A stretch of 64,000 nucleotides of DNA, taken from the NCBI RefSeq assembly GCF_016903815.1, contig NZ_CP069973.1. One strand, written 5' to 3'. Source of the DNA: Escherichia coli (GTDB lineage Bacteria > Pseudomonadota > Gammaproteobacteria > Enterobacterales > Enterobacteriaceae). Of the stretch, positions 41,101 through 53,100 are shown piece by piece (the stretch's first letter is position 1; the number at the start of each line of letters is the position of its first letter). The position numbers are program-made.

Positions 41101-44100
41101 CACTCTTCATCTGCTTTTCCTTGATGCTATAGGGGTGCTGAGACCGATAACGCATTTTGTAAACCATCCCTGTGAGAGCGAATATTCCGATATCTGGTTA
41201 TTAATTTATGATTCTTGTTTTATGTGATCGTGGTAGCGTTAATTCCGCTCATATATCATTGTAAAATATGGGTTTTATATGAATTATAATGCTTTCGTGA
41301 TAATACGCTGCGTGTATTAGGCGGAAAAAACTGATCTGGGGGATGTAGAAACTCAAGGAAGTAGCTATAATGCGCCCCGCCTCCATGTAGCAATCGAGGC
41401 GCGGAAGATCGTCGTCTCCGGTGAGGCGGCTGGACTTCAAATCCAGTTGGGGCCGCCAGCGGTCCCGGGCAGGTTCGACTCCTGTGATCTTCCGCCAGTT
41501 TACCTCTTCTGAACTCTCCCAATGTCAATAAATCTCTTCTAATCCCTTGTATATCAGTATTTATTTGTATCCAGAGGTCAACCTACTTCACCCCGTATCA
41601 AGTTTCTTTTGGGGGTACTTTAGGGGGTGTTATTTCCTATTGAAATACCAGCACCCCCATAATAGGAAAAATATGATATATAACAACGGCTTTTAACAAC
41701 ATCTTTGTTATACAAGGGGTGTATTGGGGGTATCAGGTTAGTTACTGGCAGAAATCCCCCTCAGGAACATGAATTCATCAAAAGCCGGAGGATGTCATGG
41801 CATTAACCGATATCAAAGTGAAAACCGCAAAACCCAAAGACAAACCCTATAAGCTTGCTGATGGCGGCGGTATGTATCTACTGATTAACACTAATGGTTC
41901 TAAATACTGGCGCATGAAGTACCGCTTTGCTGGTAAAGAAAAGATGCTTTCTATTGGCGTATACCCCGATGTAACGCTAGCCGATGCTCGCGAGAAACGC
42001 AGTGAAGCCAGGAAACTCCTCGCTGCTGGAGGCGATCCAGGGGAGGCAAAAAAGGAAGAAAAAATCGCGCAGCAAATGAGTCTGCAAAATACGTTCGAGG
42101 CTATTGCTCGCGAATGGCACCAGTCAAAAGCCGATCGGTGGTCATTACGCTATCGTGATGAAATCATTGATACCTTTGAAAAAGACATTTTTCCCTACAT
42201 TGGCAAGCGCCCTATTGCCGAAATCAAACCAATGGAGTTACTGGAAGCACTGCGTAAAATGGAAAAACGTGGAGCTCTGGAGAAAATGCGCAAGGTCCGC
42301 CAGCGCTGTGGTGAGGTGTTCCGCTATGCAATTGTTACTGGCCGGGCAGACTATAACCCAGCCCCCGATCTTGCCAGTGCTTTAGCTACACCGAAAAAAG
42401 TACATTTTCCCTTTCTTACTGCTAATGAACTTCCCCACTTCCTCAACGATCTGGCGGGTTATACCGGAAGTATAATCACTAAGACAGCTACTCAGATCAT
42501 TATGTTAACCGGCGTACGAACACAAGAACTGCGTTTTGCACGCTGGGAAGATATCGATTTTGAGACAAAATTGTGGGAGATCCCGGCAGAAGTAATGAAG
42601 ATGAAGCGACCTCATATTGTGCCGCTCTCTGAGCAGGTCATTATGCTATTTAAGCAGCTTGAACCAATCTCAAAACATCATCCCCTAGTCTTTATCGGTA
42701 GAAATGATCCCCGCAAACCAATTAGTAAGGAAAGCATTAACCAAGTAATTGAATTACTTGGATATAAGGGAAGACTCACAGGGCATGGTTTCAGACACAC
42801 CATGAGTACAATTCTGCATGAACAAGGCTTTAATTCCGCCTGGATTGAAATGCAGTTAGCTCATGTGGATAAAAATTCCATCAGGGGTACCTATAATCAT
42901 GCCCTGTATCTCGATGGCCGCCGTGAAATGATGCAATGGTACGCTGATTACATTGATTCACTCTCCAGCCGGGAAAGTTAAGTCAAAAATACTTTTCCCT
43001 GATGTTTTCCTCAATTAAGTATTTTATCCTCTGGCCTACAAGGCTGGAGGATTTTTGTTATTATATTATTTTTTGCGTCTTCAAACTTATTACAAAAACA
43101 TAATTAAAAGCAAATTGACATTTTTAAATTGGCAATTACAAAATACAGCCTTGCAGTTATTTCGATACCTTTAGCAAAGGAAAAGTTGATTCAGATATAA
43201 TTTAGCATTTCAATCATCTGACATCATTATAAAAAATGAGATTCACATAAAGATAAAATTATTGTTCTCAAGGAAAGCATGAAGGGGCTTTGTAAGCAAT
43301 ATTCATTCAGTGCCAAGACAGGACTTGATACACAGAATCTCAACTTTTATGCTCTCAGACTATATCACCACATGTTTTACAGGCTCAGAAAATGAACGAT
43401 AGATTATGCTTTGAAGTGCACGATAACCAGGGTTATTTCGTATTTCCGGATACCTGGTTTGGCCCATTGCTGGGGGAGTTTGAAGAAGTGCTTGATGCAT
43501 ACGACGCTGATGAAATCAGCGAGACGAGTTACATCAACAAACTCCGACGCCTTGCTCAACGGGAGCCGGACTTTATTGATATACACGCTCATCTGGCATA
43601 TGCATTTCTGGAACAGAATGCCCCGCGTAAGGCACTGAACGCCGCTCTTAAAGGACTGGCGGCAGGTAATCGTATCATCCCGGAAAGTTTCTGTGGTGAA
43701 ATAATCTGGATGCATCCCGAAAACCGGCCTTATCTGCGCGCGCTTTATGCAGCAATTCTCGCAAATGTGCACTTACAGCGCCATCAGGATGCGGTTATGC
43801 TCACTGATAAAATACTGGCATACAATCCTGAAGATAATCAGGGGGCTCGCTGGTTGTTGGGTTCAGAGCTGTTACGCACCGGCGATCATGAGCGAGCCTT
43901 CAGTGTACTGAAAGAGCATGCTGATGAATTTTCACCTTACTGGTATGAACTCGGTCTCCTGCATTTTCTGAACGGGGAACATGTTAAGGCCGCCACAGCT
44001 TTTCGCCATGGCTTTGCCACAAACACTTACATCGCAGAAATGCTGTGCGGAAATCTGCATCCATTTCCACTTGCTGTGTGGCATGACTTCTCCGGCTCTC

Positions 44101-50100: not shown

Positions 50101-53100
50101 TCGCCACTATTGAATACATATATTTATTTATAAAGTTTCTCTAAAGTCTTAATACCCATCCCATCAAAAAACAATGCGGGGTTGTTAAAATAACAACATA
50201 ACACTGTTTTCATGAGAATAGTAAAGCGTTTATTCAAAACCGTTTATAGCAACCCCATAAACCCAACATAGCAATTGAGTTTAAAAAGGAGATTTCATTG
50301 TCCCCTATCAATTAAACTTCATGTTTTTTAGTTTGTTTATAAAACAACATCATATCTCCTATAAAATACTCAGCAGTATTAAACCACCTTATCTTTAACC
50401 AAACTATTTATTCCGCAAGCCCACACTTATGGATATTTACCGTTGGTAATGACTCCAACTTACTGATAGTGTTTTATGTTCAGATAATGCCCGATGACCT
50501 TGTCATGCAGCTCCACCGATTTTGAGAACGACAGTGACTTCCGTCCCAGCCTTGCCAGATGTTGTCTCAGATTCAGATTATGTCGCTCAATGCGCTGAGT
50601 GTAACGCTTGCTGATAACGTGCAGCTTTCCCTTCAGGCGTGATTCATACAGCGGCCAGCCATCCGTCATCCATACCACGACCTCAAAGGCCGACAGCAGG
50701 CTCAGAAGACGCTCCAGTGTGGCCAGAGTGCGTTCACCGAAGACGTGCGCCACAACCGTCCTCCGTATCCTGTCATACGCGTAAAACAGCCAGCGCTGAC
50801 GTGATTTAGCACCGACGTAGCCCCACTGTTCGTCCATTTCAGCGCAGACAATCACATCACTGCCCGGTTGTATGCGCGAGGTTACCGACTGCGGCCTGAG
50901 TTTTTTAAGTGACGTAAAACCGTGTTGAGGCCAACGCCCATAATGCGTGCACTGGCGCGACATCCGACGCCATTCATGGCCATATCAATGATTTTCTGGT
51001 GCGTACCGGGCTGAGAGGCGGTGTAAGTGAACTGTAGTTGCCATGTTTTACGGCAATGAGAGCAGAGATAGCGCTGATGTCCGGCAGTGCTTTTGCCGTT
51101 ACGCACCACGCCTTCAGTAGCGGAGCAGGAAGGACATCTGATGGAAATGGAAGCCACGCAAGCACCTTAAAATCACCATCATACACTAAATCAGTAAGTT
51201 GGCAGCATTACCAAATCTGGAGCTACCACGCGTTGTTCTGGCTGGCGATAGGGATGTTGGGTATTGCGATGATTTGCCTGCTGTTTATTAAAGATATTTA
51301 GCTCACCAGTCTGGGCTAAGAAAAATCGGCGTGGCGCAAACAGAGCCATCCTCGCCATTTTTGCTATCATGCCTGCATACATAAACGACAAAACAGTATG
51401 CAGAGGGAAAAATGGGTTCCACCAGAAAGGGGATGCTGAACGTTCTGATTGCCGCCGTGTTGTGGGGAAGTTCAGGGGTCTGCGCGCAATACATCATGGA
51501 GCAAAGCCAGATGTCGTCGCAGTTTTTGACTATGACGCGTTTGATATTCGCCGGTTTGATTCTGCTGACGCTGTCATTTGTTCATGGCGATAAAATCTTT
51601 TCTATTATTAACAATCACAAAGATGCCATTAGTCTGCTGATTTTTTCCGTGGTTGGCGCGCTAACCGTACAGCTCACCTTTTTACTGACCATTGAAAAAT
51701 CGAATGCTGCCACGGCAACGGTGCTGCAATTCCTCTCACCGACGATTATCGTCGCCTGGTTCTCACTGGTGCGTAAATCCCGCCCGGGCATTCTGGTTTT
51801 TTGCGCTATTTTGACATCGCTGGTCGGGACTTTTTTACTGGTGACACACGGTAATCCGACGTCATTATCAATCTCTCCGGCCGCGTTATTCTGGGGCATT
51901 GCCTCGGCATTTGCTGCGGCATTCTATACCACCTATCCCTCAACGCTAATTGCCCGCTATGGCACGTTGCCTGTCGTCGGCTGGAGTATGCTGATCGGCG
52001 GTCTGATTCTGTTGCCTTTTTATGCCAGACAAGGGACAAACTTTGTCGTTAACGGCAGTTTGATTCTGGCGTTTTTTTATTTGGTGGTCATTGGTACGTC
52101 CCTGACATTTAGTCTGTACCTGAAAGGAGCACAATTAATTGGCGGGCCAAAAGCCAGCATTTTGAGCTGTGCAGAGCCATTAAGTAGCGCGCTGCTCTCT
52201 TTGCTGTTGCTGGGGATCACATTCACATTACCGGACTGGCTGGGCACACTGCTGATTCTGTCATCGGTGATTTTGATTTCAATGGATTCCCGTCGCCGCG
52301 CCAGAAAAATAAATCGTCCGGCGCGGGATGAGTGAGAATTACCAGCCAGGCACCGCGCCACCGTTAAAGATGGTTTCTGCCGCTTTAGCGACTTCGGATG
52401 ATTGATAAGATTGCAGAAATTCCTTCACGTTTTCTGCATTCTTATTATCTTCCCGTGCTACCAGAATATTCACATACGGCGAATTCTTATCTTCAATAAA
52501 TACGCTGTCGTGCACCGGAGAAAGCCCGGTCTGCTGAATGTAAGTGGTGCTGATAATCGCCACATCAACTTTGGGATCATCCAGTACGCGCGGGAGCTGC
52601 GCCCCCTCGAGTTCCATAATCTGCAAATGACGAGGATTCTCGGTTATATCCAGCGCGGTAGGTAGTAACCCTTTTCCCTCTTTCAGAGTAATTAGCTTCT
52701 CTTTTTGCAACAGTAAAAGCGCGCGACCAAGGTTGGTCGGGTCGTTGGGGATCGCCACTGTCGCGCCTTCTTTTATTTGCGCCACGGTTTTGATTTTTTT
52801 GGAATAACCCGCCATGGGGAAGACAAACGTATTTCCCACCGCTACCAGTTTATAACCATGCGCCTGATTATCTTGTTCAAGAAAGGGTCGATGCTGGAAG
52901 ACGTTCGCATCAAGCTCGCCATGATTTGTCGCATCGTTCGGTAGCAACGAACCGCTAAATCCTACCAATTCAACATCGAGGCCATATTTCTCTTTTGCCA
53001 CCTTTTTAGCGACTTCCGCGACATCTTGTTCTGCGCCATTAATAACGCCCACTTTAATGTGCTTTTCATCGCTGCTGCTCTGGTCGCAACCTGCCAGCAG

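What the first reader, a model, noticed from the sequence alone, without database searches (positions are those of the whole stretch)
41498..50444. Small selC-integrated islet: P4-type integrase plus a sugar-utilisation module, with the right boundary erased by IS1
Directly downstream of tRNA-Sec lies a P4-family integrase, then AT-rich cargo (an orphan 347-aa protein; LacI regulator; MFS transporter; GH31 glycosidase), ending in ~580 bp of very AT-rich ORF-poor DNA and an IS1. No direct repeat of the selC 3' end was seen at the right side, and the neighbouring core gene setC is reduced to a 3' stub, so the original attR and part of the islet or core were probably deleted. This is not LEE or SHI-2 type content.
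Basis: partly seen in the sequence, partly recalled or inferred. Interest (0 to 1): 0.5.

Follow-up and report, generated by a model that had tools for sequence, protein, structure and literature searches.

The report
IS1-truncated selC genomic island stump
The segment is the left 8.9 kb of a known, mosaic E. coli genomic island inserted at the selC tRNA gene, cut short by an IS1 element that removed the rest of the island, its right attachment site and most of the neighbouring gene setC; it is ordinary and already present in reference genomes such as CFT073 and BL21.

Summary
tRNA-Sec ends at 41497. It is followed by a P4-family integrase, a 347-aa gene, a divergent LacI / MFS–GH31 sugar module, a 582-bp AT-rich tail, IS1 (50445-51212) and an 89-nt setC stub.

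- The window has no attR.
- IS1 has no target duplication.
- 122 genomes (e.g. ATCC 8739, strain 3908) carry the same sequence uninterrupted. There it continues for ~15.8 kb to a 16-bp attR and an intact setC.
- The same left IS1 junction occurs with four different right flanks, which indicates IS1-driven deletions or rearrangements.

Two corrections:
- The 347-aa "orphan" is a ShiA/SisA/SisB-family gene. It is 97% identical to the gene in the shiA slot of Shigella SHI-2 and shares its RefSeq accession with the CFT073 selC-island gene. The left 3.2 kb is therefore SHI-2-type.
- The "islet" is a stump of a 24-25 kb or larger mosaic island.

The sugar trio is a chromosomal Enterobacterales module, found between ybiU and ybiT in 80 species, that the island captured. 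Its substrate is unknown. The trio occurs in 337 of 5,426 complete E. coli genomes. This is a known kind of element and of low interest.

The parts
41403..41497 (+). selC (tRNA-Sec, anticodon UCA); integration target
   Evidence: ARAGORN; Rfam RF01852, 83.8 bits
41474..41489 (+). attL core: 16-mer TTCGACTCCTGTGATC inside the selC 3' end. Its attR partner is absent from the window.
   Evidence: Only one copy in the window. The second copy marks the right end of the island in strain 3908 (L006 24905) and ATCC 8739 (L008 35201), exactly where K-12 homology resumes. The same repeat is published for selC islands (PMC6174562).
41608..41628 (+). Left copy of a second, island-internal repeat TTTGGGGGTACTTTAGGGGGT (possibly an integrase arm-type site; inference)
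   Evidence: Single copy in the window. The partner TTTGGGGGTTCTTATGGGGGT lies 76 bp before attR in the long version. Both sequences are as published for GIselC17584/1.
41797..42981 (+). P4-family tyrosine integrase, 394 aa, intact
   Evidence: Pfam Arm-DNA-bind_3 + Phage_int_M + Phage_integrase. NF007246 E 8e-95. 45% identity to phage P4 Int over the full length, E 2e-115. R...HxxR...H...Y residues are visible in the translation.
43392..44435 (+). shiA/sisA/sisB-family gene (347 aa, annotated as TPR protein)
   Evidence: 97% identical to the S. flexneri protein encoded at selC-integrase-X, the shiA slot of SHI-2. Same RefSeq accession WP_000999850.1 as the CFT073 selC-island gene. A ~90% DNA copy follows the pheV-island integrase in a Nissle derivative. 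Only weak TPR Pfam hits. Literature.
44579..44749 (-). Remnant of the 3' end of a phosphoethanolamine-transferase gene; end of the shared integrase-proximal module (homology to other islands ends at about 44836, to Shigella at 44712)
   Evidence: Annotated as a partial phosphoethanolamine transferase at the equivalent position in strain 723_010814_2_1. The overlapping 76-aa plus-strand ORF (44578-44808) has no family hit.
44833..45903 (-). LacI-family regulator (356 aa by the RefSeq start), divergent from the transporter/hydrolase genes
   Evidence: NCBIfam LacI-family hits, all below equivalog cut-offs. Syntenic orthologues, 56-79% aa identity, in 79 of 80 Enterobacterales loci.
45904..46164 (.). 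Divergent control region with two conserved operator-like palindromes (ATGAAAAAATTCTCAT at ~45929-45944; ATGAAAAAACGTGCA at ~46006-46020) and a conserved TGTGATC at ~45906
   Evidence: Columns conserved in at least 90% of 80 aligned intergenic regions. Their role as operators is inferred.
46165..47466 (+). MFS transporter of the anion:cation symporter (DgoT/ExuT-like) type, 433 aa
   Evidence: TIGR00893 4e-79, below cut-off. Sources name it 'ACS family hexuronate transporter-like'. Orthologues 73-90% aa identity, syntenic.
47481..49862 (+). GH31 alpha-glycosidase, 793 aa, cytoplasmic by sequence, catalytic Asp residues intact (D420 nucleophile, D490 acid/base)
   Evidence: NCBIfam MalA/YicI-type hits below cut-offs. 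PDB best hits are 6jr6 (4e-82) and ER glucosidase II. D420 aligns with YicI D416 and with the residue mutated in 6jr8; D490 aligns with YicI D482.
49891..49929 (+). Hairpin (16-nt arms, 94% complementary) 29 nt after the GH31 stop; likely terminator (inference)
   Evidence: the repeat finder I6
50043..50144 (+). 33-aa YkgR-family small membrane protein ORF within the AT-rich tail
   Evidence: NF041474, 65.9 bits, cut-off 40; annotated in RefSeq genomes
50445..51212 (-). IS1 (768 bp, insA/insB with programmed frameshift) without a target-site duplication; left end fixed, right flank variable among genomes
   Evidence: NF033558 hits. Inverted repeats. Flanks TTTACCGTT versus AAATCTGGA. Identical left junction in at least 202 genomes, with four different right flanks.
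51213..51301 (+). setC 3' stub (last 89 of 1185 nt)
   Evidence: Aligns to K-12 setC from nt 1097 and to L006 26657 onward. Annotated as a partial sugar transporter.

Best explanation
Window 41498-50444 is the left stump of a mosaic, P4/CP4-type genomic island integrated into the 3' end of selC.

The island has layers:
- An integrase-proximal module shared with SHI-2, CFT073 and pheV islands: attL, the integrase, a shiA/sis-like gene and a phosphoethanolamine-transferase remnant.
- A captured Enterobacterales chromosomal sugar module: a LacI-family repressor, an ACS-type MFS transporter and a cytoplasmic GH31 alpha-glycosidase.
- An AT-rich tail with a ykgR-like ORF.
- In intact versions, a further ~15.8 kb (ssb, trbC-like gene, IS elements, an autotransporter, cbtA-type toxin genes) ending at a 16-bp attR just upstream of setC.

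An IS1 inserted after the tail. Later events at its other end removed, in this lineage, 17.5 kb: the rest of the island, attR, 640 bp of intergenic core and 1,096 nt of setC. These events were transposase-mediated adjacent deletions or IS1-IS1 recombination. With attR and any excision functions gone, the intact integrase has no partner site, so the stump is fixed in the chromosome (inferred).

The sugar module most likely works as a self-contained inducible unit (inferred). The repressor would bind two palindromes in the divergent promoter region, the MFS symporter would import a small alpha-glycoside, and GH31 would hydrolyse it in the cytoplasm with retention of configuration through D420 and D490. 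The substrate is not known.
For: Layout and identities.

Empty K-12 site: homology stops about 15 nt after selC and resumes inside setC.

Long version: in strain 3908 and ATCC 8739 the window aligns 41331-50444 at 99.87% and resumes at setC nt 1097. The attR 16-mer sits exactly where K-12 homology restarts, with an intact setC. The second repeat pair is present at both ends only in the long version.

Counts:
- 327 genomes hold the full 8.9 kb.
- At least 202 hold the islet/IS1 junction.
- 122 hold the uninterrupted junction.
- At least 127 hold the IS1/setC junction.

IS1 has no target-site duplication, and four right flanks follow one identical left junction. One of them, DA33137, is a nested 2,563-bp further deletion in an otherwise 100% identical genome.

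Mosaicism: the integrase segment pairs with other cargo. The shiA-like gene occurs at pheV and in Shigella.

The trio is syntenic in 80 Enterobacterales loci between ybiU and ybiT, whereas these two genes are adjacent in K-12.

The islet diverges by 0.05-0.23% between lineages whose core flanks diverge by 2.1-2.6%. Catalytic residues. Conserved palindromes. G+C is 42% against 50% for the core.
Against: - No genome was found with the simple-insertion state (IS1 flanked by a TTTACCGTT duplication and followed by ssb), so the first step is inferred, not observed.
- Adjacent deletion and IS1-IS1 homologous recombination cannot be told apart from the sequence.
- Junction counts are lower bounds, because BLAST capped IS1-rich records at 40 pieces.
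- The attR of the long version lacks 4 bp (TTCC) relative to the tRNA end, so even that version may be a decayed site.
- No expression or activity data exist for the sugar genes. The GH31 gene is frameshifted in CFT073, which shows it is dispensable there.
Confidence: 0.9

Rival explanations
1. The 8.9-kb islet is a complete small island that integrated as such. IS1 merely landed at its right edge, and the long version arose later by addition of DNA.
For: The 8.9-kb form is the more frequent one among complete genomes (at least 202 against 122). All its genes are intact.
Against: The truncated form has no attR and no right-hand arm repeat, while the long form has both, exactly at the K-12 homology boundary. 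setC is truncated only in the short form. IS1 lacks a target duplication. The right flank of the same IS1 differs among genomes.
Confidence: 0.03
2. The deletion arose by homologous recombination between two directly oriented IS1 copies, one after the tail and one in setC, and not by transposase-mediated adjacent deletion.
For: It gives the same product: one IS1 with no target duplication. The lineage is IS1-rich, with 7-22 matching places per record and a second IS1-associated deletion 5 kb away. The variant right flanks in CFT073 and strain 2/0 carry large blocks of other island DNA, which is easier to explain by IS1-IS1 exchange than by deletion.
Against: No genome was seen with an IS1 at setC nt 1096/1097 together with intact upstream DNA; every sampled genome with the IS1/setC junction also has the islet on the other side. 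The nested DA33137 deletion begins exactly at the same IS1 end, which is the classic signature of adjacent deletion.
Confidence: 0.3
3. The LacI-MFS-GH31 genes are ancestral E. coli core genes lost from most strains, not island cargo.
For: The trio is chromosomal and syntenic in many related genera.
Against: In those genera it lies between ybiU and ybiT, which are adjacent in K-12. In E. coli it is found only inside the selC island, in 337 of 5,426 genomes. It is at least 99% identical across lineages whose flanking core differs by more than 2%. Its G+C is 42-44% against 50% for the core. The closest non-E. coli orthologues are only 84-85% identical at the protein level.
Confidence: 0.03
4. 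The sugar trio is the aec-35 to aec-37 cluster of the avian island AGI-3 (strain BEN2908), reported to affect carbohydrate assimilation and virulence in chickens.
For: My recollection of the AGI-3 paper (a LacI-family regulator, an MFS transporter and a glycosidase, strongly associated with selC) fits the trio. AGI-3 shares the first 3.6 kb with islands of this type. aec35-37 is used as an APEC marker with low prevalence.
Against: This could not be tested, because the primary paper and GenBank AY857617 are not available here. The only AGI-3 sugar locus described in accessible text is the fos locus (LacI-type FosR, MFS FosT, GH32 enzymes). It fits the same three-word description and is a different gene set.
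Confidence: 0.3

Closest known systems
selC island of E. coli CFT073 (called PAI-CFT073-selC, from memory) and the selC elements of E. coli B and Crooks/ATCC 8739 (Selc*B, Selc*Cr; PMC3032704)
   Same: The DNA is the same: selC, integrase, shiA-like gene, LacI/MFS/GH31 and the ykgR-like ORF are 99.8-99.9% identical. CFT073 even has IS1 at the identical left junction.
   Different: BL21, ATCC 8739 and strain 3908 lack the IS1 and keep ~15.8 kb more, plus attR and setC. CFT073 has other cargo after IS1 and a frameshifted GH31. The window has the 17.5-kb deletion into setC.
SHI-2 pathogenicity island of Shigella flexneri (selC; int, shiA, aerobactin)
   Same: Same insertion site. The integrase and the shiA-slot gene are shared: 96.9% DNA identity over 3,215 bp and 97% protein identity for the 347-aa gene.
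   Different: Homology ends at window 44712. There are no aerobactin (iuc/iut) or other shi genes; the cargo here is a sugar module.
GIselC17584/1 (STEC O91:H21) and AGI-3 (APEC BEN2908) selC islands
   Same: Same 16-bp att repeat and same second repeat pair, and the same left-end module of integrase, shiA homologue and phosphoethanolamine transferase.
   Different: Those islands are ~49-50 kb with both ends intact and other cargo. Whether AGI-3 carries this GH31 trio could not be checked.
IS1-promoted adjacent deletions (established IS1 biology; recalled, not cited from a held paper)
   Same: One IS end stays fixed, there is no target duplication, and nested deletions of different extent run into the adjacent DNA (window versus DA33137).
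   Different: IS1-IS1 recombination cannot be excluded. Some variants (CFT073, strain 2/0) involve replacement, not pure deletion.
YicI/YicJ (GH31 alpha-xylosidase plus GPH transporter), encoded immediately upstream of selC
   Same: A transporter gene followed by a GH31 hydrolase gene, with both catalytic Asp residues conserved.
   Different: Only 25% identity. The transporter is of a different family (ACS-type MFS, not GPH). The island enzyme is closer to alpha-glucosidase-type GH31 enzymes (6jr6, glucosidase II) than to YicI or the sulfoquinovosidase YihQ.

Membership tests
tRNA-associated P4/CP4-type genomic island | Inserted at the 3' end of a tRNA gene that stays intact | tested here: met
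   Homology to the empty K-12 site ends ~15 nt after an intact selC
tRNA-associated P4/CP4-type genomic island | P4-family tyrosine integrase next to the tRNA | tested here: met
   Arm-DNA-bind_3 + Phage_int_M + Phage_integrase; 45% identity to P4 Int, E 2e-115
tRNA-associated P4/CP4-type genomic island | Flanking direct repeats of the tRNA 3' end (attL and attR) | tested here: not met
   The window has only attL. Both repeats are present in the uninterrupted version of the same island. The window therefore holds a truncated member, not an intact one.
tRNA-associated P4/CP4-type genomic island | Deviant base composition and patchy distribution among strains | tested here: met
   42.0% against ~50% G+C. 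Present in 327-337 of 5,426 genomes and absent from K-12.
SHI-2 (PAI iuc/iut) | selC insertion with int and shiA at the left end | tested here: met
   96.9% DNA identity over 3,215 bp to the S. flexneri selC locus; the protein is 97% identical
SHI-2 (PAI iuc/iut) | Aerobactin synthesis and uptake genes (iucA-D, iutA) | tested here: not met
   No ORF in 41498-50444 has such a match; the cargo is LacI, MFS and GH31. It is not a SHI-2 member and shares only the left-end module.
LEE | Type III secretion apparatus, intimin and Tir between selC and setC | tested here: not met
   None are present among the islet ORFs. The T3SS-related genes further right (53962 onward) are the separate eip/selC-B locus, located after nlpA/yicS.
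IS1 | 768-bp element with ~23-bp terminal inverted repeats and insA/insB' with a frameshift | tested here: met
IS1 | 9-bp target-site duplication of a simple insertion | tested here: not met
   TTTACCGTT against AAATCTGGA. This is consistent with a deletion or recombination product.
Glycoside hydrolase family 31 | GH31 fold-level homology with the conserved nucleophile and acid/base aspartates | tested here: met
   PDB GH31 hits down to 4e-82; D420 and D490 align with YicI D416 and D482
Glycoside hydrolase family 31 | Assignable substrate specificity (equivalog-level match) | tested here: not met
   All NCBIfam equivalog models score below their cut-offs: MalA 314 against 800, YicI-type 233 against 606, YihQ-type 139 against 553
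AGI-3 aec-35 to aec-37 cluster | Sequence identity to aec-35/36/37 of GenBank AY857617 | not testable with these tools
   The primary paper and the sequence are not held. Accessible text describes only the GH32 fos locus on AGI-3.
sisB of CFT073 | Identity to the CFT073 selC-island shiA-like gene | tested here: met
   Same RefSeq protein accession WP_000999850.1 in strain 7/2 (100% identical to the window here) and at CFT073 selC. That this copy, and not the pheV one, is the one named sisB rests on my memory, because the primary paper is not held.

The most novel reading that the evidence does not exclude
The LacI / ACS-type MFS / GH31 trio may be an uncharacterised Enterobacterales operon for a small, possibly anionic, alpha-glycoside that E. 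coli K-12 cannot use. The trio is conserved between ybiU and ybiT in at least 80 species. E. coli lacks it at the native site, and about 6% of strains (including BL21, ATCC 8739 and CFT073) regained it through capture on a selC island. It could be a gut-niche fitness determinant whose substrate would define a new GH31 specificity.
Probability: 0.2. Interest if true: 0.4.

Novelty: already known. Interest (0 to 1): 0.15.

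Why it matters
The finding matters little beyond annotation. It shows that a short 'islet' can be the stump of a larger island, and that IS1 is actively eroding the selC region in this lineage; a second IS1-associated deletion lies 5 kb away. The stump keeps two items of possible biological relevance. One is a ShiA/Sis-family gene, whose homologues in Shigella and CFT073 are reported to dampen host inflammation. The other is an intact, conserved sugar-uptake and hydrolysis module of unknown substrate that is also present in the common laboratory strain BL21.

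Tried and rejected
- Searching the window for the selC 3' end with 26-nt and 16-nt patterns taken from the very end of the tRNA found nothing. These patterns would also have missed the true attR of the long version, which lacks TTCC, so I repeated the search with the 16-mer core; this was also negative.
- The repeat finder gave only short, chance-level pairs apart from the IS1 ends.
- I followed a recollection that the trio equals aec-35 to aec-37 of AGI-3. The primary papers are not held, searches for 'aec' returned mostly noise, and accessible text describes a different AGI-3 sugar locus, the GH32 fos locus. The link is left open and not asserted.
- A poultry strain sharing the integrase/shiA-like module did not carry AGI-3. 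Its island holds iha, lactate-utilisation and microcin H47 genes.
- A sulfoquinovosidase reading of the GH31 was rejected, because YihQ is a much weaker match than alpha-glucosidase-type enzymes.
- Gene neighbours of the trio in other genera are core genes (ybiT, ldtB, ybiU, ybiV, ybiW) and give no clue to the substrate.
- Rfam found nothing in the islet except tRNA-Sec.

Full report
**Observation**

- ARAGORN and Rfam place tRNA-Sec at 41403-41497.
- Downstream lie a 394-aa integrase (41797-42981) and a 347-aa ORF (43392-44435).
- Next come a LacI-family gene on the minus strand (44833-45903), an MFS transporter (46165-47466) and a GH31 hydrolase (47481-49862).
- A 582-bp tail follows, at 31.6% G+C. 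The islet as a whole is 42.0% G+C, against about 50% for the core on both sides.
It is followed by the last 89 nt of setC (51213-51301), then yicL and nlpA.
- The tail holds one small annotated ORF, a 33-aa YkgR-family membrane protein.

**Is attR really absent?**

Yes. The end of selC occurs only once in the window. The 16-mer TTCGACTCCTGTGATC is the published direct repeat of selIC-type... (correction: selC) islands (PMC6174562). It occurs only inside selC, apart from two 3-mismatch chance hits far upstream. The IS1 flanks, TTTACCGTT and AAATCTGGA, are not a target duplication.

**What was lost**

The full 8.9 kb is present in 327 of 5,426 complete E. coli genomes. In 122 of them the sequence continues without IS1. 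Examples are strain 3908, GF4, ATCC 8739 and BL21.
- In strain 3908 the window aligns over 41331-50444 at 99.87% and resumes at setC nt 1097.
- Between these points lie 15,790 bp of further island DNA: ssb, a trbC-like gene, ISEc31, an AIDA-type autotransporter, IS remnants, and cbtA, DUF5983, DUF957 and DUF4942 genes.
- Then come the 16-bp attR core, 640 bp of core intergenic DNA (including the yicT/rhuM pseudogene that K-12 also has) and the first 1,096 nt of setC.
- K-12 homology stops about 15 nt after selC and resumes exactly at the 16-mer of the long version.
- A second published repeat pair behaves the same way. TTTGGGGGTACTTTAGGGGGT is at window 41608. Its partner sits 76 bp before attR and exists only in the long version.

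The window therefore holds the left third of a 24-25 kb island, and 17.5 kb is missing.

**How it was lost**

The islet/IS1 junction is identical in at least 202 genomes. The DNA on the other side of that IS1 differs:
- setC nt 1097 in the window and at least 127 genomes;
- window position 53776 in strain DA33137, which is 100% identical on both sides and has lost a further 2,563 bp (the setC stub, yicL, nlpA and yicS);
- a BREX-1 and afa/dra island in strain 2/0;
- amino-acid antiporter and decarboxylase genes in CFT073.

None of these has the duplicated TTTACCGTT. One fixed end with nested or variable events at the other is what IS1 adjacent deletions produce (established IS1 biology, from my own knowledge). 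IS1-IS1 recombination gives the same product and probably explains the variants that carry replaced DNA. The original simple insertion was not found, so that first step is inferred.

**The island is mosaic, and the 'orphan' is not an orphan**

The integrase segment occurs at 99% identity at selC with quite different cargo. The 347-aa gene, together with a phosphoethanolamine-transferase remnant, follows the integrase in many islands, including the pheV island of a Nissle derivative.
- A 97%-identical protein is encoded in Shigella flexneri chromosomes at yicI-yicJ-selC-integrase-X, which is the shiA slot of SHI-2.
- DNA homology to that locus (96.9%) runs for 3,215 bp. That is the same boundary reported between another selC island and SHI-2 'including shiA'.
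- The protein carries the same RefSeq accession as the CFT073 selC-island gene.
- CFT073's two ShiA homologues are the sisA and sisB genes, implicated in suppressing inflammation. Which name belongs to the selC copy I know only from memory.

The statement 'not SHI-2 type content' is therefore right for the cargo, since there are no aerobactin genes, but wrong for the left end.

**The integrase**

It has the Arm-DNA-bind_3, Phage_int_M and Phage_integrase domains and is 45% identical to phage P4 Int over its full length. Its closest phage relatives are IntS-type integrases at about 50% identity. It looks intact. However, the stump has no attR and no recognisable excisionase, so it should be unable to excise (inference).

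**The sugar module**

- GH31 orthologues of 73-85% aa identity occur in 80 species of Enterobacterales. In all loci that extend far enough, the LacI gene lies divergently upstream and the MFS gene directly before the GH31 gene, with no integrase nearby.
- There the trio lies between ybiW-ybiV-ybiU and ybiT-ldtB. ybiU and ybiT are adjacent in K-12.
- In E. coli the trio is found only in the selC island. It is in 337 genomes, 336 of them at 99% identity or more.
- The islet differs by 0.05-0.23% between lineages whose adjacent core differs by 2.1-2.6%.

The trio is therefore captured cargo that has spread recently. It is not decaying core DNA.

The GH31 protein keeps the nucleophile (D420) and acid/base (D490) residues, and I saw no obvious signal peptide in its N-terminal sequence. 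It resembles alpha-glucosidase-type GH31 enzymes more than YicI or YihQ, but it reaches no equivalog cut-off. The transporter is of the anion:cation symporter type. Two palindromes in the divergent control region are conserved in at least 90% of 80 species.

The likely mechanism is repressor-controlled import and cytoplasmic hydrolysis of a small alpha-glycoside, but this is inferred and the substrate is unknown.

**Comparison with what is known**

The element is present in reference genomes that have long been published (CFT073, BL21/REL606, ATCC 8739), and it is listed as Selc*B and Selc*Cr (CP4) in PMC3032704. Its att repeats and left-end module are described in the literature. My recollection that the trio is the aec-35 to aec-37 cluster of AGI-3 could not be verified. 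The accessible description of AGI-3 sugar genes concerns the GH32 fos locus.

**Verdict**

The finding is real and correctly read in its essentials. It is a truncated member of a well-known island family, and the mechanism of truncation is also well known. The only open question is the substrate of the conserved GH31 module.

Noticed in passing
window 56724-57491: A second IS1, 93% identical to the first and in the opposite orientation, with no target duplication (AGGTACTAG / CGTTTTCCT). Relative to strain 7/2 it replaces 5,313 bp: the rest of the eipC-like gene, the IpaD/SipD-like gene, eilA and the 3' end of air/eaeX. The window's strain has therefore lost the EilA regulator of the selC-B/ETT2 system.
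   Followed up: partly
window 53962-64000: The eip (selC-B) locus lies next to yicS: a SycD/LcrH-type chaperone, a YopB/SseC-like translocator, a truncated eipC-like gene, then the inverse autotransporter gene air/eaeX on the minus strand with ~291-bp tandem repeats (82-89% identical). This locus is described in the literature (PMC7058095).
   Followed up: partly
window 30162-37105: A cluster between yicH and yicI encodes a lyxose/mannose-type isomerase, a ROK protein, two aldolases, fructose-type PTS IIA/IIB/IIC components and a BglG-family antiterminator. It is absent from ATCC 8739 and BL21; part of it is seen in CFT073 and in a poultry strain.
   Followed up: no
L010 (strain DA33137), equivalent to window 51213-53775: A close relative, 100% identical on both sides, has a further IS1-adjacent deletion of 2,563 bp that removes the setC stub, yicL, nlpA and yicS.
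   Followed up: yes
L006 24905-24930 and L008 35201 onward: The attR of the uninterrupted island reads TTCGACTCCTGTGATC|GCCAAAATG, so it lacks the TTCC present at that point in selC and in the empty K-12 site. Even the 'intact' version has a slightly decayed right end.
   Followed up: partly
L096 14645-17027 (CFT073): The GH31 gene of the same module is annotated as frameshifted in CFT073, whereas it is intact in the window, BL21 and ATCC 8739.
   Followed up: no
window 37400-41110 and 46165-49862: Two unrelated transporter-plus-GH31 pairs flank selC: core yicJ-yicI (GPH transporter and alpha-xylosidase) upstream, and the island's MFS-GH31 pair downstream. The two hydrolases are only 25% identical.
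   Followed up: yes
window 1-469: At the window start, within the waa (LPS core) cluster, a family 8 glycosyltransferase gene is annotated as frameshifted in the identical strain 7/2.
   Followed up: no
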